From assembly GCA_035288465.1 (NCBI GenBank), contig DATEAH010000007.1, positions 66,090 through 130,089 on the forward strand: a DNA stretch of 64,000 bases. The letters are read 5' to 3'. This document shows positions 45,541 to 61,640 of this stretch, one piece after another. The first letter of the stretch is position 1, and every line of letters begins with the position of its first letter. Origin of the DNA: Patescibacteria group bacterium (GTDB lineage: Bacteria > Patescibacteriota > UBA1384 > DATEAH01). The position numbers and the translations under genes were made by a program. A model generated the notes under the pieces. The model did no database searches. It saw nothing but the letters and a program-made list of their open reading frames with translations, and was not told the DNA's origin.

Positions 45541-46227
45541 TTGTTGATCGAATTTAGACACGTCTCAAAAATATACAAAAGTGATAAAAAGGCTTTGGAT
45601 GACGTGTCTTTTAAGATTCCCAAAAAAGAATTTGTATGTTTGGTGGGACCGTCTGGAGCAGGCAAGTCAACCTTAATCAAAATGCTAATTTGTGACGAGA
45701 AACCAAGTTCGGGAAAAATTTTAATCGGCGGATTTAATATCACGAATTTGAAACCGGCGGAAATCCCCTATTTTCGTCGTAAAATTGGCGTTGTTTTTCA
45801 AGACTATAAATTACTTTCCGATAAAAATGTTTTTGAAAATATCGCTTTTGCGCTTGAAGTTTGCGGCGCATCCGACGCGGAAATTCGTAAAAAAGTTCCC
45901 CGAGCCTTAAAATTGGTAGGGTTAGAAAAATGTCTTCAAAATTTTCCTGATGAATTATCTGGTGGCGAAAAGCAACGCGTTTCAATCGCAAGAGCTTTAA
46001 TCCACAGCCCAAAATTACTCATTGCTGATGAGCCGACCGGAAATTTAGACCCCAAAACTGCCTGGGAAATTATTAAATTGCTTTTAAGAATTAATGAATT
46101 TCAAGGGACAATAATTCTATTAGCTACCCATCATAAAGAAATCGTGGATCGTTTAAAAAAACGGGTGATCACTGTCAAAAATGGTAAATTAGTTTCTGAT
46201 CAACAAGAAGGTAAATACATAATATAG
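45541..46227 (+). CDS. ftsE: cell division ATP-binding protein FtsE
   Basis: 228 aa. Walker A GPSGAGKST, ABC signature LSGGEKQRVSIARAL, Walker B LLIADEPTGNLD. TTG start. Confidence 0.9.
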   Translation: MLIEFRHVSKIYKSDKKALDDVSFKIPKKEFVCLVGPSGAGKSTLIKMLICDEKPSSGKILIGGFNITNLKPAEIPYFRRKIGVVFQDYKLLSDKNVFENIAFALEVCGASDAEIRKKVPRALKLVGLEKCLQNFPDELSGGEKQRVSIARALIHSPKLLIADEPTGNLDPKTAWEIIKLLLRINEFQGTIILLATHHKEIVDRLKKRVITVKNGKLVSDQQEGKYII

Positions 46228-46273
46228 CGACTAAATTTTTTAATTTTAATAAATTTGAATTAGAGGATAAAAA

Positions 46274-47209
46274 ATGCAACAAGTGACTGGAACTACGGCT
46301 CTTTCGAGAGTTTTCAAGTGGAGTATTTTGAGTTTTTGGCGAAACCGCTTATTGTCAATTGCGGCCACCCTAGTAATGACTCTAACGCTTTTGACGATTT
46401 CATTATTTGTAATTTTGAATTTAATTATTGGTACGACTGTTGACGTGGTACAACATAAAATTGACCTGGTGGTGTATTTAACTGAATCTGCGACCGAGGC
46501 AGATATTACAAATCTTAAAACTCAAGTAGAACAAATGCCTGAAGTTGCCTCAGTAAATTATATTGATAAAGCTCAAGCTTTGGCAAAGTGGCAATCAAAA
46601 GAAATAAAAGATGAGCTAAAAAATATTGCTACCACCGCTGACAACCCTTTGCCTCGCAGTTTGGAAATTAAAGTCAAAGATTTAACCAAACTTGAACAAA
46701 CCGCCACCTTTTTTGAATCCGCAGAAGTTAAACCTTTGGTGGATAAAACCACCATGCACGAGAATCGGGCGACGATTAATCGATTATTAAAAACTACCCG
46801 TTTCTTTCGCATTAGCGGGATAATTTTTTCAGCATTTTTCGTTTTAATTTCTTTATTGGTTATTTTTAACACGATTCGTTTAGCAATATATAGCCGTCGC
46901 GACGAGATTGACATTATGAAATTAGTGGGCGCCACCAGCTCGGCGATTCGTTGGCCTTTTATAGTTGAAGGGATGTTTTATGGATTATTGGCAACAGTAA
47001 TATCGGTGATTTTGCTCTTTGTGGGTTTTAGATTTTTATCACCAGTAGTAAATAAATATTTAGGCGAGTTAATGACTGAATGGGGTGGCAGTTTGATGAA
47101 TTATTTTATTGCTAATTTGTGGCAAATTATTTTATGGCAATTATTGGTGGGATTCGCGATTGGCGCCGCTTGCAGTTTCTTGGCAATCAGAAAACACCTT
47201 AAAGTGTAG
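46274..47209 (+). CDS. ftsX: cell division permease FtsX
   Basis: 311 aa. N-terminal TM, periplasmic domain and a C-terminal 3-TM FtsX domain. Follows ftsE. Confidence 0.8.
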   Translation: MQQVTGTTALSRVFKWSILSFWRNRLLSIAATLVMTLTLLTISLFVILNLIIGTTVDVVQHKIDLVVYLTESATEADITNLKTQVEQMPEVASVNYIDKAQALAKWQSKEIKDELKNIATTADNPLPRSLEIKVKDLTKLEQTATFFESAEVKPLVDKTTMHENRATINRLLKTTRFFRISGIIFSAFFVLISLLVIFNTIRLAIYSRRDEIDIMKLVGATSSAIRWPFIVEGMFYGLLATVISVILLFVGFRFLSPVVNKYLGELMTEWGGSLMNYFIANLWQIILWQLLVGFAIGAACSFLAIRKHLKV

Positions 47210-47295
47210 AGAGGTGAGACAGAGATTTGAGACAAAGACTTGGGGAAGGAGGGCTTGAAATATTTTTATAAATTTGGTATAATAGATATTAAAGA

Positions 47296-47405
47296 AAATC
47301 ATAAATCCTAAATCCGAAATTCTAAACAAATTACAATTCCAAAATTATAAATCACAAACAGGTATTGTTTAGAGTTTAGTGCTTAGAAATTAGAATTTAT
47401 AAATA
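47296..47405. repeat. AT-rich intergenic inverted-repeat element, copy D
   Basis: aaatcataaatcctaaatccgaaattctaaacaaat ... caaacaggtattgtttagagtttagtgcttagaaattagaattt. The 29-mer is identical to copy C. The arms are imperfect reverse complements. Confidence 0.55.
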
Positions 47406-47416
47406 TTGAGGGGCAA

Positions 47417-48628
47417 ATGCTCTTGAAGAATTTTTTGACAAAAACTATGCAAACTATGAGCAAAATTGTGCTTTATGTTTTTCTCATAGTTTTTTTATTT
47501 CCGCAATATACTGCTGCAGATTCAATTCAGGATAAACAAAGAGAACTGCAGAATATTCAATCTCAAATTGATCAGCAGCAAAAGCTCTTAAATCAAAAAT
47601 CCGGCGAAAGAAGAACCTTGGCAGGTCAAGTTTCATCAATGGATGCGCAAATCAGACAGACTCAACTCTCAATTAATAAAACGCAGACTGAAATTGATTT
47701 AGCGCAGGTTGAAATTACTAAACTTAATACACAAATTGCTCAAAAGGAAAAAGAATTAAAACGTCAAAAACAAATTCTCAACGAAGCCTTGAGAGTAATT
47801 TATCAAGAAACTGACACCAGTTTTATTGAAATGCTATTTTCTTCTAATAATATTTCGCAGGTTTTGGACCAAACTGAATATTTGGGGGCAGTTGAAGGCA
47901 AAATCGAAAATACAATGGCAGAAATCAAACAAGTAAAGTCTGCCCTTGCAACTGATAAAAAAGAGCAGGAAACTAAAAAAACCCAATTGGCTGAGAAAAA
48001 AGATGAATTAAAAATAAAAGAGTCAGGTCTAAGCGGGCAAAGAAATACGCGGAATGGTTTACTGGTTGAGACAAGAGGTCAAGAGTTTGCATACCAACAA
48101 TTATTGTCACAGAGACAAATAGAATGGGAGAGATCCAACGCCGAACTGAAACGTATGGAAGCTGCTTTGTATTCGGGTGGTCCTGATAGTGGACCTGGTT
48201 ATAGTGTCCCAAATTGGCCGATGTATGGAAGAATAAGTGTCCCATATGGGGCTTGTGGGTGTGATGCATATTTTTGTGGTAAATGCCATACGGGCATAGA
48301 TATTGTTGCCAGCCCCTATACTTCAGTTAGAGCAGCAAAAGACGGGGTTGTTAAAGATACAGTTAACTCTTGCCGTGATTCTGTTGGAGATTATGGTTGT
48401 GGTGGAGGATATGGTAATCGGGTTATAATTGAACATAATGATGGTCATGTTTCAATATATGGACATTTAAGTCAGGGTTCTGTGAGGGTAAGAGTGGGGA
48501 CTAGAGTTTCTGGAGGAAAAACGGTGATTGGCTCAGAGGGTAATAGTGGTTTCTCAACCGATTTTCATCTCCATTTTGAAATTAGGAATAGGATGTGGGG
48601 ATCATCTGTAAGACCATTACTACCATAA
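47417..48628 (+). CDS. M23-family peptidase with an N-terminal coiled coil (EnvC-like, FtsEX partner)
   Basis: 403 aa. Signal/TM, a long Q-rich coiled coil and a LytM domain with HTGIDI and HLHFEI motifs plus a Cys-rich insert. Confidence 0.8.
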   Translation: MLLKNFLTKTMQTMSKIVLYVFLIVFLFPQYTAADSIQDKQRELQNIQSQIDQQQKLLNQKSGERRTLAGQVSSMDAQIRQTQLSINKTQTEIDLAQVEITKLNTQIAQKEKELKRQKQILNEALRVIYQETDTSFIEMLFSSNNISQVLDQTEYLGAVEGKIENTMAEIKQVKSALATDKKEQETKKTQLAEKKDELKIKESGLSGQRNTRNGLLVETRGQEFAYQQLLSQRQIEWERSNAELKRMEAALYSGGPDSGPGYSVPNWPMYGRISVPYGACGCDAYFCGKCHTGIDIVASPYTSVRAAKDGVVKDTVNSCRDSVGDYGCGGGYGNRVIIEHNDGHVSIYGHLSQGSVRVRVGTRVSGGKTVIGSEGNSGFSTDFHLHFEIRNRMWGSSVRPLLP

Positions 48629-48696
48629 ATTTAAATATTAATTAAAAATGAATTTAAAAAAGAGGGGCAAAAACCTTTGGTTTGTGTTTTAAGTTA

Positions 48697-48725
48697 TTGA
48701 CAAAATTTGATTTTTATCATAAAAT
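48697..48725 (+). promoter_or_regulatory. near-consensus sigma70 promoter TTGACA-N17-TAAAAT
   Basis: ttgaca (48697-48702), an exactly 17-nt spacer, then taaaat (48720-48725). Predicted TSS ~48732, at the start of the hairpin-rich leader of the RT cassette. Confidence 0.55.
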
Positions 48726-48730
48726 AAAAT

Positions 48731-48975
48731 TACTCGAATTATATTTGAGTAGTGCGCAACGCACTAAAGTTGGTGTTTTTTCGCCTCCAAAATTTCTTGC
48801 CGTTTGTTACTACTACTCAACTGCGAAAATGGAGTTATGGATTATGTGATTTAAGATAATAATATTCAAAATTATTTTAATGATCAACTCACGAATTTGA
48901 AGTATGCATGGAACTGCTTTTGCCATAATCAGCCTTTAACTGCACCTCCTTTTATTAAGGCAAGAAAGGAGGTTT
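48731..48975 (+). ncRNA. candidate structured non-coding RNA / leader upstream of the reverse transcriptase (possible retron msr-msd-like region)
   Basis: No ORF. Perfect hairpins tactcga..ttgagta, gtgcg-caa-cgcac and aactc..gagtt. A long-range complement cctcc..ttcttgcc (48784-48801) pairs with ggcaagaa.ggagg (48958-48974). A 9-bp hairpin acctccttt/aaaggaggt lies at 48944-48972. Confidence 0.4.
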
Positions 48976-49098
48976 ATGAAAATTAAACTAAAAGGCTGGT
49001 TGAAAAGGTCTGGAATGATTCTCGATTTAGTTGCTAAATTATTAGCAGTGATCAAAGTCATAAAGGACCTTTTAGGGTACCGATTAATGCCCTCATGA
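48976..49098 (+). CDS. 40-aa small ORF (amphipathic helix peptide) between the leader and the RT
   Basis: RBS aaaggagg precedes the ATG. Encodes MKIKLKGWLKRSGMILDLVAKLLAVIKVIKDLLGYRLMPS. Its stop codon sits in the hairpin ccctc-atgaa-gaggg that also carries the RT RBS. Confidence 0.3.
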   Translation: MKIKLKGWLKRSGMILDLVAKLLAVIKVIKDLLGYRLMPS

Positions 49099-49111
49099 AG
49101 AGGGATTAAAT

Positions 49112-50014
49112 ATGAAATTGCAACCCATACGTTCTCAAAAAGATTTAAATGATATTTTTGATATTAACGATCAAAAAATTATTAGTCTTATTAAGCTAAA
49201 AAATAAATATAAAAAGCGATCTATCCCGAAAAAATCTGGTGGAATAAGGGTAATAACGGAGCCCGCACCCGAATTGAAATCTTTCCAAAAAAAGCTGGGT
49301 AGCTATATTTTTCGTATGAAAAAATTAAAATTCGCTTATGGTGGCGTGAAGAATAAATGCCGAGAAGATGTCGCTAAACTTCACAGATGTAATTATTTTA
49401 TTCTTAAATGTGATATTAAAAATTGTTTCCCTTCGATTAGAAAAAAAGTAGTGGTTAAAGAATTGTTGAACTTTGGTTTTACATATAAATACGCTAAATT
49501 GTTCACAGAAATAATAACTTTTGAAGGATCTCTTCCTCAGGGTGCACCTTCAAGTCCGGGCATGGCGAATTTAATATTAGATAAGATTGATAATCAAATT
49601 ATAACTGTACTACCGTTTGGCTGTAAATATTCCCGATGGATTGATGACATTATGATTTCATTTCCGAAAAAAAATCAACTAAAAATAATTAAAGACATAT
49701 CGAAAAAAATTGAGAATATAATTCATTCTAATGGTTTAAATCTGAAAGATGGGGTTTCTATTATCCTCAAGGAGCATTGCAGCGATTTACTTGGGCAATC
49801 AATATCTAAGAAGATTAATATTCCTAAAAAATGGTATAAAATTTTACGGAGTCAAGTTTATAGACTTAAAAGGGGATTTTATAAAGGTAAAGAACAAGAA
49901 AAAATAATAGCTTTAATCAAAGGTAAAATGGTATTATTAAAAAGTGTTACCGTCCATCACAAAAAACAAACTAGATATTATACGCTTAAGAAAATACTTG
50001 ATAAAATTATGTGA
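49112..50014 (+). CDS. reverse transcriptase, compact retron-type (no maturase or endonuclease domains)
   Basis: 300 aa. RT motif 1-2 KKSGGIRVITEP, motif A LKCDIKNCFPSI (D101), motif B' LPQGAPSSPGMANLIL, motif C RWIDDIMIS (W-x-DD variant). Retron-like thumb segment LLGQSISKKINIPKKWYKILRSQVY. Ends with TGA. Confidence 0.8.
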   Translation: MKLQPIRSQKDLNDIFDINDQKIISLIKLKNKYKKRSIPKKSGGIRVITEPAPELKSFQKKLGSYIFRMKKLKFAYGGVKNKCREDVAKLHRCNYFILKCDIKNCFPSIRKKVVVKELLNFGFTYKYAKLFTEIITFEGSLPQGAPSSPGMANLILDKIDNQIITVLPFGCKYSRWIDDIMISFPKKNQLKIIKDISKKIENIIHSNGLNLKDGVSIILKEHCSDLLGQSISKKINIPKKWYKILRSQVYRLKRGFYKGKEQEKIIALIKGKMVLLKSVTVHHKKQTRYYTLKKILDKIM

Positions 50015-55745: not shown

Positions 55746-56048
55746 ATGTATCCAATCCCCAACGAAGACCAGAAATGGTTGATGAAACACGGTAGGCAAG
55801 ACGAGCAAGGCAATTGGTGGTGCAAGCAAACAGGCGCCCTCATACAAATGGTTATAATTAATCGCTCAATTTGGATTCAGCCCTTTATGGGCGGAGGCGG
55901 TGACGTTAGACGCGTTGGGCATCTTTGTTGCGAGAGATGCAATCCCAATCGTATTTTTCCACAAAATGGAACCCCGATTTATGAAGACGATCTTTATGAC
56001 CCCGAACAACAGATTCTTGAGACGCCACCCACTGTAGTAGTATCCTAA
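55746..56048 (+). CDS. hypothetical small Cys/Trp-containing protein
   Basis: 100 aa. Strong RBS gaaggagg. Markedly GC-richer than the neighbouring DNA. WWCKQTG ... HLCCERCNP putative metal-binding cysteines. Confidence 0.4.
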   Translation: MYPIPNEDQKWLMKHGRQDEQGNWWCKQTGALIQMVIINRSIWIQPFMGGGGDVRRVGHLCCERCNPNRIFPQNGTPIYEDDLYDPEQQILETPPTVVVS

Positions 56049-56177: not shown

Positions 56178-58220
<2,043 letters not shown>

Positions 58221-58260
58221 AAAAAGAGAGGCGGTCCTCGGAAAATTAATTTGATAACTT

Positions 58261-58281
58261 GGTGAGGATTCACCTCTTTTT
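58261..58281 (+). terminator. intrinsic terminator ggtga-ggat-tcacc plus tcttttt
   Basis: Downstream of ligA. Confidence 0.4.
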
Positions 58282-58290
58282 GAATTTTTA

Positions 58291-59418
58291 TTAAGAAATA
58301 GAATATCGTTTCAACCAATTTCTGGCTCGAATGGCAGCTTCGGGAATTGCGCCCTCGCTTATTACTAAAACTTCAATTTTGGCATGGACTCTGGCGAGCA
58401 TATTATACATTTTTTTAGGTTGATTAGCCTTAGCGAATTTTAGGGCTTGAGTTAGTCTTTTAACTTGAGGAGATCGGGCGCGAGCGTAATAAGGTTCAAC
58501 AGTAAAGACCTTTTGAATTCTTGGGTACAAGTTTTCAATATCACGGGCAATAGCGAGTAGAACTTTGGGTTCTACAGGTTTTCCTTGAATGGCATATGGT
58601 TCTAATCTTGTAAGCAAATTTGGAATACTATTAAAGTAAATAAGATTTGCACCCTGATTAATTTTGCGTGCCATATGATAAATTGCCAAGCCGATATTGG
58701 TAATACCCCTCATTTGCTGTAACTTTTCCTGCCGAAACATCCCTAAAACACCAATCGCTTGCCCAATAGCAATAATTCTATCTTTGCCGTTAGCGGCACG
58801 CTCAACTTTTCTTAAAGCATCTATTAAAGTTGGTTGGCGGGTTTGACTTAAGGCGGTTAGAGTTTGAAACAAAAGCTGATTTGCCGCAATGGTTTTTGGT
58901 GAATCTGGTTTTAAGGTTTGCGAGAGATTTGAAAGTGCTCTGATTAAATCTTCGATCCAAACTTTCGCTCGAGTATATTCTCCTAGACCTGCCGGATAAT
59001 TTTCGCGACCGACTTTTCCTACCAACGAGTGGCTAATATGATATAGGTATTGACGAGCCGCCGAGACAATATCTGAATTTCGCCGAATAGTTATAACATA
59101 CAATCCGCCGCTTCTGGAAGGGATTGAAATTTCTCGTTCTTCTGGCGGTTTGGCAATTTCTTTTAATTCCCAAGCAGATAAGCGTCGCGATTGGGCGATT
59201 AGCAACATACCAGGTTTGGCAATCCAAATTCCAGACTTAATTAAACCATTTCGGCCTCGCCATCTGACTTTAATCCGACATGGGTGTCTGACTTCGAGAA
59301 GATGGTTAAAGCTGGTTTGTCTAAATAAAAATGGTAGTTCAATCGGATAATCGCCATGCCAAATAAAAGGTTCAATTTCTTCAAGGTATGGAGCTCTCAC
59401 ATATGGCAACTTAGCCAC
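58291..59418 (-). CDS. hypothetical protein (~372 aa), first gene of the minus-strand island; the likely start is TTG at 59409
   Basis: No recognisable catalytic motif, Arg/Ala-rich, GC-richer than the genome background. Has its own promoter (59440..59468) and a terminator-like neighbour. Confidence 0.5.
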   Translation of the reverse strand: MAKLPYVRAPYLEEIEPFIWHGDYPIELPFLFRQTSFNHLLEVRHPCRIKVRWRGRNGLIKSGIWIAKPGMLLIAQSRRLSAWELKEIAKPPEEREISIPSRSGGLYVITIRRNSDIVSAARQYLYHISHSLVGKVGRENYPAGLGEYTRAKVWIEDLIRALSNLSQTLKPDSPKTIAANQLLFQTLTALSQTRQPTLIDALRKVERAANGKDRIIAIGQAIGVLGMFRQEKLQQMRGITNIGLAIYHMARKINQGANLIYFNSIPNLLTRLEPYAIQGKPVEPKVLLAIARDIENLYPRIQKVFTVEPYYARARSPQVKRLTQALKFAKANQPKKMYNMLARVHAKIEVLVISEGAIPEAAIRARNWLKRYSIS

Positions 59419-59439
59419 CTCCGTTTCGGAATCTTTAAT

Positions 59440-59468
59440 ATTTTATCATTTCGTATGTTTTTGTCAAT
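59440..59468 (-). promoter_or_regulatory. promoter TTGACA-N17-TAAAAT (minus strand) for the 58291..59418 gene
   Basis: Reverse complement reads ttgacaaaaacatacgaaatgataaaat, followed by the SD ggaggtgg. Confidence 0.5.
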
Positions 59469-59475
59469 CTTTATA

Positions 59476-59522
59476 ATAAAAAAACGCCTAAACGTTATAA
59501 ATTTTGAAAAACGCTGAGGCGT
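59476..59522 (-). terminator. intrinsic terminator (acgcct..aggcgt stem plus U-run on the minus strand) after paralog 1
   Basis: Paralogous to the terminator at 60383..60427. Shared core aaaaaacgcct ... aacgctgaggcgtaaaa. Confidence 0.55.
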
Positions 59523-59541
59523 AAAAATTGTGGAAATAAAT

Positions 59542-60279
59542 TTAACTATAATCTTTGGTATATAAAAGTGGTTGTGGCTTGCACATCGGACATTCGGATT
59601 TATGAAATGTGATGTTAGGAAGCGAAAGAAGAGCCCGGAAACAAAAATCTTTATTAATTTTTTGCGGGGATAACCCACTATCAGCAGTTTGGTTTTCGAC
59701 ATATTCTGGCGTGGTAACAAATGTGGCAATTCCGACTAAATTCTCGTGACGGAGACCATTATTAAGTATTCCCTTGATGGTACCATGTGCATAGGCAGAG
59801 TCTAAAATAACATTAGTGGCTACCAATGCTTTTTCATTGCCCGAAATAAGGTCTCCAGCTCTCATTTCCTTAAAAAATCCGTTATTGTCTATATCGGTTA
59901 ACACTAAACGTGCGCCAAGTTCCATTGCCAGAGAAGTCCCAAAGAAGACATCAAACGCATAATTAGCAGCTACTACTACATTGACTTTTTGATTAGCAAA
60001 AGCATCAGCTAAAACCTTGACAATTCTATTACCTGGTTTGGGATCCAAAAGTACGCGACTCATTTGAGGCCAAACCAATGAATGGGCAAAAGTGTGGAGA
60101 ACTTCCCAGTGCCCGGCCAACAGAACTCGATATCTAGCAAGGATATCAATGAGCGAATCGGGAGTTAATTCCGGAGAGGAAAAATGAAAATTCGCCTCAC
60201 CCAAAAGCTGTTCGATTTCTTCTTTTGTCAGTGGTCGAGGTTCAATGACTTTGCCGTCCGTGCTTGCCATCAGTTGCAT
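59542..60279 (-). CDS. hypothetical protein, paralog 1 (alpha/beta Rossmann-like; start at the RBS-supported MQLMASTDG)
   Basis: About 245 aa. Shares GHWE(V/I), LDP(K/E)P(G/T)N, NG(F/L)FK(E/A)MR, NEK(A/I)L(V/I)..NV(I/L)(L/F)D and N(L/I)(V/K)GIA(T/L)F(V/I)TT blocks with paralog 2. C-terminal Cys pair CPMC. Confidence 0.5.
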   Translation of the reverse strand: MQLMASTDGKVIEPRPLTKEEIEQLLGEANFHFSSPELTPDSLIDILARYRVLLAGHWEVLHTFAHSLVWPQMSRVLLDPKPGNRIVKVLADAFANQKVNVVVAANYAFDVFFGTSLAMELGARLVLTDIDNNGFFKEMRAGDLISGNEKALVATNVILDSAYAHGTIKGILNNGLRHENLVGIATFVTTPEYVENQTADSGLSPQKINKDFCFRALLSLPNITFHKSECPMCKPQPLLYTKDYS

Positions 60280-60313
60280 CTGGTCATTCCTCCTCGTTGG
60301 TGGACTTAAAATT

Positions 60314-60341
60314 ATTATATCAAAAAATTTATTTTTGTCAA
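60314..60341 (-). promoter_or_regulatory. promoter TTGACA-N16-TATAAT (minus strand) for paralog 1
   Basis: Reverse complement reads ttgacaaaaataaattttttgatataat, followed by the conserved leader aagtccaccaacgaggagg. Confidence 0.55.
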
Positions 60342-60382
60342 TCAAATTTGAACTTAAAGGAGTTTTTTGCTATTTCGGCAAT

Positions 60383-60427
60383 AAAAAAACGCCTGAGCGT
60401 GATAAGTTTGTTAAAACGCTGAGGCGT
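60383..60427 (-). terminator. intrinsic terminator (11/12-bp stem acgcctgagcgt / acgctgaggcgt plus U-run) after paralog 2
   Basis: Strong GC stem with an A-run on the plus strand (a U-run on the minus strand). Confidence 0.6.
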
Positions 60428-60452
60428 AAAATAATATTAAGCAAGATGAAAA

Positions 60453-61208
60453 TTAATGATAGTCTGATGCATTCAATAATGATTTGGGGCGGCGGCGTAT
60501 CAATTTGTCGAAAAATGATCGAGATTGGCATCGTTGGCAATATCTAACTGGACGAACATGGCTATTTTTAATAATCACCAGAGAGTAAGGGAATAAATCA
60601 TCAAGGGTTGCAGCTTCAATCGCTTCGATTGTCTCACGGGTTGTTATAAATAATGCAATACCCTTAATATTTTTTCTGTTGGCGCCGTTTTCGACAATTC
60701 CTTGAATGATACTTATCATTGTCGTAGGGTCAAAAAGGACATTTTGGAAAATTAGAATTTTTTCATTTTCTTCAAAAGTATTAGGCCCTCTCATGGCTTT
60801 AAATAATCCATTTTCTTGATTCATTTCCACAATCACCAGCCGGGAATTGGAATTGGTAAAATTCATTACTAGCGGTACTCCAAATAAGACACTGGTGTTA
60901 TTTGGAACTACAATCGTATTAATGTCAAGAGGTTCCAGGGCTTTTGAATAATTTCGAGCCGTAATATTAGTTGGTTCGGGATCGCAAAGCATATTTGCCA
61001 TGGCAAACCAAACATCGGAATGTATCCTGCCTCCGGGAATCTCCCAGTGTCCGCCTAACGCAACTTGATATTCTGAAAAAACATTGTCCAAATAGTACGG
61101 CATTTCGAAATTTTTAGAAAAAGGATTAGGAAAGTTATTGTCAACCAATAACTTAATTTCGGGGACGCTTAATGTCTTAGGTTCGGGACGCACCGTGGTA
61201 TTGCCCAT
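60453..61208 (-). CDS. hypothetical protein, paralog 2
   Basis: 251 aa. Homologous to 59542..60279 over ~190 aa. C-terminal Cys pair CQRC. Confidence 0.5.
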   Translation of the reverse strand: MGNTTVRPEPKTLSVPEIKLLVDNNFPNPFSKNFEMPYYLDNVFSEYQVALGGHWEIPGGRIHSDVWFAMANMLCDPEPTNITARNYSKALEPLDINTIVVPNNTSVLFGVPLVMNFTNSNSRLVIVEMNQENGLFKAMRGPNTFEENEKILIFQNVLFDPTTMISIIQGIVENGANRKNIKGIALFITTRETIEAIEAATLDDLFPYSLVIIKNSHVRPVRYCQRCQSRSFFDKLIRRRPKSLLNASDYH

Positions 61209-61240
61209 TCATCATTCCTCCTTGTGGTGGACTTGAAATC

Positions 61241-61268
61241 ATTATAACTTATAATTATTTTTTGTCAA
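61241..61268 (-). promoter_or_regulatory. promoter TTGACA-N16-TATAAT (minus strand) for paralog 2
   Basis: Reverse complement reads ttgacaaaaaataattataagttataat, followed by the leader aagtccaccacaaggagg. Confidence 0.55.
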
Positions 61269-61328
61269 TCAGATTTGAACTTAGAGGAAATTTTTGCTAA
61301 ACTTTAAAATAGAAGTAAATAAAGGAGT

Positions 61329-61640
61329 TTGATGGTAAGAATTTCAAAAAAGGAAATTGAACATATTGCCGAATTAGCACGGTTGGGGATCACAGAGAAA
61401 GAAAAATCTGAATTTTCAGAACAATTGTCTGAAGTTTTGTCGTATGTAGAATTGTTAAATCAAATTGACACTAAGGATGTTGAACCAACTGCGCAGGTGA
61501 CAGGGTTGAAAAATGTTTTTCGAGACGACAATCCAGAAGCTCAAACACAACATCGGGCGAGCAAAAAAGAATTATTACAAAATGCACCACAAATTAAAGA
61601 CGATTATTTTAAGGTGCCAATAGTTTTAGATCAGCAATAA
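61329..61640 (+). CDS. gatC: Asp/Glu-tRNA amidotransferase subunit C
   Basis: 103 aa. ISKKEIEHIAELARLGITEKE ... VEPT pattern of GatC. Upstream of gatA. Confidence 0.85.
   Translation: MMVRISKKEIEHIAELARLGITEKEKSEFSEQLSEVLSYVELLNQIDTKDVEPTAQVTGLKNVFRDDNPEAQTQHRASKKELLQNAPQIKDDYFKVPIVLDQQ

What the first reader, a model, noticed from the sequence alone, without database searches (positions are those of the whole stretch)
58291..61310. Minus-strand three-gene island in which every gene has its own consensus promoter and intrinsic terminator
Three consecutive minus-strand genes are each preceded by a near-consensus sigma70 promoter and followed by a hairpin-plus-U-run terminator. They are a ~372-aa protein without recognisable motifs and two mutually homologous ~245-250-aa proteins. 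The promoters are TTGACA-17-TAAAAT, TTGACA-16-TATAAT and TTGACA-16-TATAAT.

All three genes look GC-richer than the surrounding genome. They sit between ligA and gatCAB, a common housekeeping neighbourhood. I could not assign any of the three proteins to a known family with confidence. The paralogs show an alternating beta/alpha (Rossmann- or macro-like) pattern and a C-terminal Cys pair.

This modular, highly expressed-looking architecture with unknown proteins is a good candidate for an undescribed accessory system.
Basis: partly seen in the sequence, partly recalled or inferred. Interest (0 to 1): 0.65.

Follow-up and report, generated by a model that had tools for sequence, protein, structure and literature searches.

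The report
Degenerate pyrE duplicates plus orphan gene
A 3.1-kb block found in only one groundwater Patescibacteria species sits between ligA and gatCAB and holds two old, catalytically stripped copies of the pyrimidine enzyme PyrE plus a basic protein with no relatives, each with its own promoter and terminator; it is real and tidy, but its function cannot be established from sequence.

Summary
The observation largely holds. Three minus-strand genes are present: g3 60453-61208, g2 59542-60279 and g1 58291-59409. Each has a near-consensus sigma70-type promoter, a GGAGG ribosome-binding site and a hairpin followed by seven U. The "GC-richer" claim does not hold.

The two paralogs are not family-less. 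They are very divergent descendants of the Thermus-type orotate phosphoribosyltransferase (TIGR01367; hhalign 99.4%, E 5.5e-22), and the C-terminal Cys pair is an ancestral mark of that subfamily. All five substrate-binding motifs are replaced, so they are unlikely to make OMP. They remain under purifying selection (dN/dS about 0.4).

g1 (372 aa, pI 10.3, mostly helical) has no detectable relative. It was searched less exhaustively than the paralogs.

The paralogs' promoter and terminator modules are 79-84% identical, although synonymous sites are near saturation.

The block occurs in one species only. Two relatives have ligA-gatCAB contiguous, so it is an insertion.

My best reading is an accessory, independently transcribed pair of pseudo-PRTases, probably a ligand-binding heterodimer, plus a putative nucleic-acid-binding partner. 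The mechanism is inferred, not shown. Interest is modest.

The parts
60453..61208 (-). g3: 251-aa PyrE-derived pseudo-PRTase paralog (NCBI HLC39058, 'hypothetical protein')
   Evidence: ORF. 37% identical to g2. The profile of g2+g3 matches Thermus-type PyrE. The PRPP motif is replaced by ILIFQNVLFDPTT.
59542..60279 (-). g2: 245-aa PyrE-derived pseudo-PRTase paralog (HLC39057)
   Evidence: TIGR01367 E 1.5e-7, but 31 bits against a cutoff of 150. PDB 4paw OPRTase E 2.5e-8. Foldseek hits are all type I PRTases. The PRPP motif is replaced by ALVATNVILDSAY; CPMC is retained.
58291..59409 (-). g1: 372-aa orphan protein, pI 10.3, with a short beta-rich N-terminus and about 12 predicted helices (HLC39056)
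   Evidence: ORF with GGAGG 8 nt before TTG. No relative at E<=10 among 5.8 billion clusters. Nothing in Pfam, PADLOC, PHROGs, NCBIfam or PDB. AF2 pLDDT 40 and no fold match. Charge figures.
61241..61268 (-). Promoter P3 of g3: TTGACA-16-TATAAT, 32 nt before the ATG
60314..60341 (-). Promoter P2 of g2: TTGACA-16-TATAAT with TG extension, 34 nt before the ATG
59440..59467 (-). Promoter P1 of g1: TTGACA-16-TAAAAT with TG extension, 30 nt before the TTG start
61225..61299 (-). Conserved promoter/leader module of g3. It is paralogous to 60298-60372 and extends about 30 nt upstream of the -35 (TAGCAAAAA..TCCT.TAAGTTCAAAT.TGA) and through the leader to the SD
   Evidence: 84% identity over 75 nt, while the CDS is 49% identical at the nucleotide level and 40% at third positions.
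60298..60372 (-). Conserved promoter/leader module of g2. It includes the 10-bp palindrome TCAAATTTGA abutting the -35
60381..60428 (-). Terminator after g3: arms ACGCCTCAGCGT / ACGCTCAGGCGT, 16-nt loop, then U7
   Evidence: -17 kcal/mol, z -4.7
59476..59523 (-). Terminator after g2, paralogous to the one after g3. The two 3'-arm differences keep the stem: G-C becomes G-U, and the other change falls at the already mismatched position
   Evidence: 79% identity over 70 nt; z -5.4
58219..58288 (.). Convergent terminator region shared with ligA. On the minus strand there is a long hairpin followed by U7 after g1; on the plus strand, GGTGAGGATTCACC plus a T-run after ligA
   Evidence: z -5.3

Best explanation
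The block is a lineage-specific 3.1-kb insertion between ligA and gatCAB in one groundwater Patescibacteria species. It consists of three monocistronic units, each with a consensus sigma70-type promoter, a short leader with GGAGG, a CDS and an intrinsic terminator.

**g3 and g2.** These are ancient tandem duplicates of a Thermus-type pyrE gene. They keep the type I PRTase fold and the subfamily's GH..HS and CPxC marks. Every substrate-binding element has been replaced:
- the acidic pair ED became TN (g2) or QN (g3);
- the phosphate loop TTGGS became LDSAY or FDPTT;
- GPAxGG became AANYAFD or VPNNTS;
- the RR of the flexible loop became MR;
- DRS became TTP or TTR.

**Inferred consequences.** They no longer bind PRPP or make OMP. 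Like their dimeric ancestor, they probably pair as a g2-g3 heterodimer. The remodelled pocket is still conserved between the paralogs, so it probably binds another small ligand or partner. g1 is a strongly basic helical orphan and is inferred to bind nucleic acid. The likeliest role is an accessory ligand-sensing or regulatory module in the style of PurR, PyrR or GfcR, not metabolism.

**Shown:** the anatomy, the ancestry, the loss of motifs, purifying selection, and the insertion and restriction to one species.
**Inferred:** loss of activity (about 0.7), heterodimer (about 0.4), regulatory or sensing role together with g1 (about 0.25).

The confidence given (0.45) is for the statement as a whole. 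The anatomy and ancestry alone would rate about 0.9.
For: **Anatomy.**

**Ancestry.**
- NCBIfam TIGR01367, E 1.5e-7, covering profile positions 5-177 of 187.
- PDB OPRTase 4paw, E 2.5e-8.
- In the exhaustive HMMER search, the only hits beyond self were 20 weak ones. The 10 scanned with Pfam all carry Pribosyltran, and the 4 scanned with NCBIfam are bona fide TIGR01367 members at 180-232 bits.
- hhalign 99.4%, E 5.5e-22, over 181 columns including the CPxC.
- Foldseek on the low-confidence model returns only PRTases.

**Motif loss.** Read from the alignment.

**Selection.** dN 0.71, dS 1.74, ratio 0.41. Both ORFs are intact in a 37% GC genome.

**Regulatory modules.** Their conservation (84% and 79% identity) is far above that of synonymous sites. 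The substitutions in the terminator preserve the stem.

**Insertion and restriction.**

**g1.** Basic and soluble.

**Precedent.** PRTase-fold regulators exist: purR_Bsub and GfcR models match true PyrE relatives. PRTase-like proteins paired with a DNA-binding partner are described in type III retrons (PMC7736814).
Against: - No direct evidence for any ligand, for dimerisation, for nucleic-acid binding by g1, or that the three genes act together. Separate promoters and terminators argue, if anything, against obligatory co-expression.
- No HTH or other DNA-binding domain was detected in any of the three proteins.
- Known PRTase-fold regulators generally keep the PRPP motif.
- Conservation of the remodelled loops between g2 and g3 is only modestly above the 37% average: 40-56% by my count.
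- Both structure models are low-confidence (pLDDT 48 and 40).
- High pI is common in AT-rich reduced genomes.
Confidence: 0.45

Rival explanations
1. The block is an anti-phage or abortive-infection module with a PRTase-like effector, comparable to ShosT or to type III retron effectors (a PRTase-like protein plus a downstream DNA-binding auxiliary). It might act in trans with the retron-type RT and candidate ncRNA 8.3 kb upstream.
For: - It is a species-restricted insertion among housekeeping genes.
- The order 'PRTase-like, PRTase-like, then a basic auxiliary protein' resembles type III-A1/A2 retron effector pairs (PMC7736814).
- A retron-type RT lies at 49112-50014: PADLOC RT_II-A 1.7e-46, RT_III-A 3.9e-45. 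It has a structured 480-nt leader and its own promoter.
Against: - No PADLOC hit for g1-g3 at E<=1, although PADLOC is a library of defence-system protein models; that it holds retron PRTase and ShosT models is my recollection.
- The PRPP motif, which is essential in Retron-Eco11 (PMC12746101), is absent.
- The retron signature Gx14PNNxP is not met: g3 has only PNNTS, without the G or the final P.
- Seven called genes separate the RT from the island, six of them with housekeeping-type Pfam domains, and the island is on the opposite strand.
- The RT has a different composition: GC 0.29 against about 0.40.
- g2 and g3 are closest to genuine PyrE, not to retron PRTase clusters.
Confidence: 0.12
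2. g2 and g3 are still enzymes: highly divergent nucleobase or nucleoside salvage catalysts using a different substrate or chemistry. They would serve a symbiont that scavenges nucleotides. On this reading g1 is unrelated.
For: - The PRTase fold is kept, there is purifying selection, and promoters are strong.
- Asn replaces the second acidic residue in both paralogs and could still hydrogen-bond a ribose (inference).
- CPR bacteria depend on salvage (general knowledge).
Against: - All five substrate-binding motifs are changed together, including the 5-phosphate loop, which now carries an Asp.
- The TIGR01367 score is 31 bits against a cutoff of 150.
- There is no Pfam Pribosyltran hit at E<=1.
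- A useful salvage enzyme would be expected in more than one species, yet none is found among 1.84 billion cluster representatives.
Confidence: 0.15
3. The genes are evolutionary leftovers: old pyrE duplicates and a young orphan gene, drifting with little or no function in a genome that lost de novo pyrimidine synthesis.
For: - Extreme divergence, with all catalytic motifs lost.
- dN/dS of 0.41 is relaxed compared with typical housekeeping genes.
- g1 has no relatives.
- Found in a single species.
Against: - Three long intact ORFs of 245-372 codons in AT-rich DNA.
- dS is near saturation while 34-37% amino-acid identity persists.
- Consensus promoters, SD sequences and terminators are maintained, and are 79-84% identical between the two modules.
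- The sequence is essentially invariant across more than 20 assemblies.
Confidence: 0.15
4. The block is an assembly or binning artefact, for example a chimeric contig.
For: None beyond the odd orientation of the block.
Against: The same junctions with ligA and gatC appear at 99.9-100% identity in contigs from many independent samples and assemblers: ENA, JGI, Logan and NCBI.
Confidence: 0.01

Closest known systems
Thermus-type orotate phosphoribosyltransferase (PyrE; NCBIfam TIGR01367; e.g. PDB 4paw, H. pylori HP1257)
   Same: - Full-length collinear homology: hhalign 99.4%, E 5.5e-22.
- Type I PRTase fold.
- Shared GH(F/W), HS, a Pro after the hood region, one Arg of the flexible loop, and the C-terminal CPxC.
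   Different: - All PRPP- and orotate-binding motifs are replaced.
- There is an extra N-terminal segment of about 45 aa and extra C-terminal insertions.
- The score is 31 bits against the family cutoff of 150.
- Two diverged copies sit in tandem, with no pyrimidine-pathway neighbours.
PRTase-fold regulators (B. subtilis PurR, PyrR, haloarchaeal GfcR)
   Same: The PRTase fold is reused for something other than bulk nucleotide synthesis. This is a possible functional analogy, with sensing by the former active site.
   Different: - Those proteins carry an HTH domain or bind RNA directly, and as far as I recall they keep a PRPP-type motif.
- No HTH was detected here.
- Similarity to them is no better than to any other PRTase.
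Type III retron effectors (PRTase-like protein plus winged-helix auxiliary; Retron-Eco11) and ShosT
   Same: - A PRTase-fold protein is followed by a separate, possibly nucleic-acid-binding protein.
- A retron-type RT exists in the same genome region (PMC7736814).
   Different: - Not adjacent to the RT.
- No PADLOC match.
- The PRPP motif required for Eco11 defence is absent.
- The Gx14PNNxP motif is absent.
- Each gene is monocistronic (PMC12746101).

Membership tests
Thermus-type OPRTase (TIGR01367 PyrE) | Score above the curated equivalog cutoff (150.25 bits) | tested here: not met
   g2 scores 31.2 bits. g3 has no hit to this model at E<=1. True members found in the search score 180-232 bits.
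Thermus-type OPRTase (TIGR01367 PyrE) | Common ancestry / collinear full-length homology | tested here: met
   hhalign 99.4%, E 5.5e-22, 181 columns. hmmsearch against PDB 4paw gives E 2.5e-8.
Thermus-type OPRTase (TIGR01367 PyrE) | PRPP-binding motif: four hydrophobic residues, two acidic residues, then hh-TTG-x-S/T | tested here: not met
   The family has VLIVEDVITTGGS. g2 has ALVATNVILDSAY and g3 has ILIFQNVLFDPTT.
Thermus-type OPRTase (TIGR01367 PyrE) | Hood motif GHFxLxSGxHS, the GPAxGG loop, the LRRGF flexible loop and the DRS orotate-site motif | tested here: not met
   - The hood is GHWEVLHTFAHS in g2 and GHWEIPGGRIHS in g3.
- The GPAxGG loop is AANYAFD or VPNNTS.
- The flexible loop is EMRAGD or AMRGPN.
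- DRS is TTP or TTR.
- Only GH, HS and one Arg survive.
Thermus-type OPRTase (TIGR01367 PyrE) | C-terminal CPxC | tested here: met
   g2 has CPMC and g3 has CQRC, aligned with the CPLC/CPMC of family members.
Thermus-type OPRTase (TIGR01367 PyrE) | Catalyses orotate + PRPP -> OMP | not testable with these tools
   Needs an enzyme assay or complementation of a pyrE mutant.
Type I PRTase superfamily (Pfam PF00156 fold) | Five-stranded parallel beta core with flanking helices | tested here: inconclusive
   The AF2 model is low-confidence (pLDDT 48; the core at residues 90-190 is about 70). All 50 Foldseek matches listed, which include the 42 with E<=0.001, are PRTases or the PRTase-fold regulator PurR. 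The Pfam HMM itself gives no hit at E<=1.
Retron type III effector module | Encoded next to the retron RT and ncRNA | tested here: not met
   The RT is at 49112-50014 and the island at 58291-61208, on the opposite strand, with seven called genes between them, six carrying housekeeping-type Pfam domains.
Retron type III effector module | Match to retron PRTase-like or auxiliary protein models; PRPP motif; Gx14PNNxP motif | tested here: not met
   No PADLOC hit at E<=1. The PRPP motif is absent. g3 has PNNTS, without the G 15 residues upstream or the final P, and g2 lacks the motif. The motif definition is from PMC12746101.
ShosTA and other known defence systems | Match to any PADLOC model | tested here: not met
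   Zero families for g1, g2 and g3 at E<=1.
Phage or mobile-element cargo | Relatives in phage or viral collections; integrase, flanking repeats, or atypical composition | tested here: not met
   - No hits in PHROGs, IMG/VR or INPHARED.
- No flanking direct repeats.
- GC and GC3 are within 1.2 SD of the genome's genes.

The most novel reading that the evidence does not exclude
The island is the unlinked effector module of a split retron-like system. It would comprise two PRPP-motif-less PRTase-fold proteins plus a basic auxiliary protein. The reverse transcriptase and ncRNA lie 8.3 kb upstream at 48629-50014. This would be a retron in a CPR bacterium whose effectors are separately transcribed and do not act by PRPP consumption.
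Probability: 0.05. Interest if true: 0.7.

Novelty: new variant of a known kind. Interest (0 to 1): 0.3.

Why it matters
If g2 and g3 prove functional, they would show a core pyrimidine enzyme turned into a non-catalytic (or differently catalytic) protein pair in a reduced symbiont genome. g1 would be a new fold or family.

The duplicated promoter-leader and terminator modules are far better conserved than synonymous sites. That gives a natural footprint of what a Patescibacteria promoter and terminator need, which is useful because these organisms lack genetics.

The family is confined to a single species and no function can be assigned, so the wider significance is limited for now.

Tried and rejected
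**Searches for relatives of g1.** None gave a credible match.
- Word-indexed search of 5.8 billion clusters, at E<=1e-3 and again at E<=10: self only.
- Pfam, PADLOC, PHROGs and NCBIfam: no hit.
- PDB by sequence: nothing below E 0.15.
- Single-sequence AF2: pLDDT 40.
- Foldseek on that model: only non-significant generic helical proteins.
- Self-comparison for internal repeats: none.
- hhalign against g2/g3: no relation.

**Searches for relatives of g2 and g3.**
- Word-indexed search: self only.
- Exhaustive profile search of 1.84 billion representatives: self plus 20 weak hits. Every one of the 10 scanned is a PRTase, and 4 of them are bona fide PyrE.

**Strain variation.** It was useless for selection tests: all contigs are 99.9-100% identical.

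**Mobile-element origin.**
- No viral or phage hits.
- No flanking repeats.

**RNA elements.** No known RNA family in the island or at gathering score in the window apart from tRNAs.

**RT relatives.** A metagenome scan, meant to show what their neighbours are, returned only the same species.

**Retron supplement.** The supplementary sequences of the retron classification paper are not held, so a direct profile comparison with retron PRTase clusters was not possible.

**Rejected ideas.**
- The Cys pair as a novel zinc site: it is ancestral.
- Foreign GC composition: not significant.
- Assembly artefact: the same junctions appear in many assemblies.


Full report
**What is in the sequence**

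Between ligA (56181-58220, +) and gatC (61329-61640, +) lie three minus-strand ORFs, in a region where every other called gene from about 17 kb onward is on the plus strand.

With starts chosen by ribosome-binding sites, the genes are:
- g3: 60453-61208, 251 aa.
- g2: 59542-60279, 245 aa.
- g1: 58291-59409, 372 aa, with a TTG start 8 nt after GGAGG.

Public gene calls give the same three lengths. NCBI labels all three 'hypothetical protein' in a 'Patescibacteria group bacterium' MAG.

**Promoters**

The scan finds three promoter-like sites:
- TTGACA-16-TATAAT at 61268-61241.
- TTGACA-16-TATAAT at 60341-60314.
- TTGACA-16-TAAAAT at 59467-59440.

The last two carry a TG extension. Each -10 hexamer ends 30-34 nt before its start codon.

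Perfect 12/12 sites number 4 in the window, against 0.07 expected. Sites at 11/12 or better number 16, against 4.1 +/- 2.1 in shuffles. Consensus promoters are thus a general habit of this genome, at roughly one per operon. The island is unusual in having one per gene.

**Terminators**

The simple scan found none on the minus strand, because their loops are 13-16 nt.

Folding the three 3' regions gives strong hairpins, each followed by seven U. The energies are -17, -14.2 and -20.5 kcal/mol, with z-scores of -4.7, -5.4 and -5.3.

The terminator after g1 shares the convergent gap with a plus-strand terminator for ligA.

**Composition**

The three genes have GC 0.404, 0.412 and 0.385, against 0.372 +/- 0.034 for 47 other ORFs. 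GC3 is 0.30-0.35 against 0.315 +/- 0.038. The 'GC-richer' impression is not significant, so composition gives no sign of recent foreign origin.

**The paralogs are diverged PyrE**

g2 and g3 are 37% identical (E 2e-33). Pfam, PADLOC and PHROGs give nothing credible. The evidence for PyrE ancestry is:
- NCBIfam matches g2 to TIGR01367, the Thermus-type orotate phosphoribosyltransferase, at E 1.5e-7 across almost the whole profile.
- A profile of the pair hits PDB 4paw, an OPRTase, at E 2.5e-8.
- An exhaustive HMMER search of 1.84 billion representatives finds only the two proteins themselves at strong E-values, plus 20 weak hits (1e-7 to 1e-3).
- All 10 of those weak hits scanned with Pfam carry Pribosyltran.
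- The 4 scanned with NCBIfam are genuine TIGR01367 members at 180-232 bits.
- Profile-profile comparison with ten of the weak hits gives 99.4% probability and E 5.5e-22 over 181 columns.
- The AF2 model is low-confidence (pLDDT 48). Even so, all 50 Foldseek matches listed, including the 42 with E<=0.001, are type I PRTases or the PRTase-fold regulator PurR.
- The 'C-terminal Cys pair' is the CPxC that this PyrE subfamily carries at the same position.

**But they are not OPRTases by any defining feature**

In the alignment, each substrate-binding element differs from the family consensus:

| Family element | g2 | g3 |
|---|---|---|
| VLIVEDVITTGGS (PRPP motif) | ALVATNVILDSAY | ILIFQNVLFDPTT |
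| GPAxGG | AANYAFD | VPNNTS |
| LRRGF | EMRAGD | AMRGPN |
| DRS | TTP | TTR |
| SG of the hood | lost | GG at the aligned position |

g2 scores 31 bits against the family cutoff of 150.

The genes are nevertheless maintained. dN is 0.71 and dS 1.74, which is near saturation, giving a ratio of 0.41. New motifs are shared by both copies: GHWE, HSxVW, NGxFKxMR, NEKxL...NVxxD and GIxxNG.

I conclude that they are pseudo-PRTases: repurposed, and very probably unable to bind PRPP in the canonical way. That conclusion is inferred from the motifs, not assayed.

**g1**

No relative was found anywhere, even at E<=10 in 5.8 billion clusters. No family, PDB or fold match was found either.

It is soluble and strongly basic (pI 10.3; 57 K+R against 29 D+E). 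It has no internal repeats. It is predicted to have a short beta-rich N-terminus and about a dozen helices, from a low-confidence model. It is unrelated to g2 and g3. Nucleic-acid binding is a guess from its charge.

**Duplicated regulatory modules**

The 75 nt covering the upstream box, -35, -10 and leader of g2 and g3 are 84% identical. The 70 nt covering their terminators are 79% identical. The coding sequences are only 49% identical, and 40% at third positions.

The two differences in the terminator's 3' arm preserve the stem. So the flanks are either under strong selection or have been homogenised by gene conversion.

Conservation extends about 30 nt upstream of the -35. It includes a palindrome, TCAAATTTGA, abutting the -35 of P2. 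This is a possible shared operator or UP element, and it is untested.

**Distribution**

Every contig carrying any of the three proteins has the same neighbourhood and is 99.9-100% identical to the window. It is one population sampled many times.

Of 15 related genomes found through LigA (43-56% identity), none has a tblastn match to any of the three island proteins. Two have ligA followed after 18-37 nt by gatC-gatA on the same strand. Three closer ones have rodA/ftsW after ligA instead.

The block is therefore a lineage-specific insertion into a variable but housekeeping neighbourhood. It has no integrase, no flanking repeats and no viral relatives.

**Mechanism**

*Shown:* three separately signalled units, PyrE ancestry, motif loss, purifying selection, insertion and restriction to one species.

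*Inferred:*
- g2 and g3 no longer make OMP (about 0.7).
- They pair as a heterodimer, as dimeric OPRTases would after duplication (about 0.4).
- Together with basic g1 they act as an accessory ligand-sensing or regulatory module, analogous to PRTase-fold regulators (about 0.25).

*Rivals:* a defence module, a divergent salvage enzyme, or near-functionless relics.

**The retron lead**

A retron-type RT with a structured leader lies 8.3 kb upstream. Type III retrons use a PRTase-like protein plus a downstream DNA-binding auxiliary (PMC7736814).

However, the island is unlinked to the RT and on the opposite strand. It has no PADLOC match. It lacks the PRPP motif that Retron-Eco11 needs, and it lacks the Gx14PNNxP signature (PMC12746101). 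I keep this only as the low-probability novel case.

**Verdict**

This is a real, neatly modular, species-specific island. Two of its three 'unknown' proteins are explained as degenerate PyrE duplicates; the third is a true orphan.

It is a new variant of a known fold family rather than a demonstrably new system. With a single occurrence and no functional handle, the interest is modest.

Noticed in passing
window 48629-50014 (+): There is a retron-type reverse transcriptase (300 aa, motif RWIDD, at 49112-50014). Its top PADLOC hits are RT_II-A 1.7e-46, RT_VI 2.9e-46 and RT_III-A 3.9e-45. It has the lowest GC of the window's genes (0.29). A 480-nt non-coding stretch precedes it, with its own TTGACA-17-TAAAAT promoter (48697-48725) and several hairpins (MFE z -3.9); this is a candidate msr-msd RNA. 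No known effector gene is adjacent: an M23 peptidase lies upstream and an S41 peptidase downstream. A metagenome scan found relatives only in the same species.
   Followed up: partly
window 61228-61268: The g3 promoter overlaps a plus-strand promoter-like site, TGGACT-16-TATAAT (61228-61255), that would serve gatC. The insertion cut gatCAB off from ligA, so gatCAB now seems to depend on a divergent promoter overlapping P3.
   Followed up: no
window 60342-60351 and 61269-61278 (-): A 10-bp palindrome, TCAAATTTGA, directly abuts the -35 of P2. At P3 it has one mismatch (TCAAATCTGA). It lies inside the roughly 30-nt conserved box upstream of both promoters and may be an operator or UP element. 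It is absent at P1.
   Followed up: no
window 55746-56048 (+): A 100-aa ORF just upstream of ligA has the highest GC of the window's genes (0.46) and several Cys (CCERC). It has no Pfam or PADLOC hit. It is called as a gene in all public contigs.
   Followed up: partly
L011 5345-6430, L012 3435-4526, L013 2129-3223: In the three closest LigA relatives (54-56% identity), ligA is followed by a 361-364-aa multi-pass membrane protein that looks like RodA/FtsW by sequence, not by gatCAB. Synteny downstream of ligA therefore varies within this lineage.
   Followed up: partly
window 45541-48628 (+): An FtsE-like ABC ATPase, FtsX and an M23 peptidase lie in a row immediately before the RT locus. The ATPase's PADLOC hits (mad3, AriA and others) look like generic ABC/AAA similarity, not evidence of defence.
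   Followed up: no
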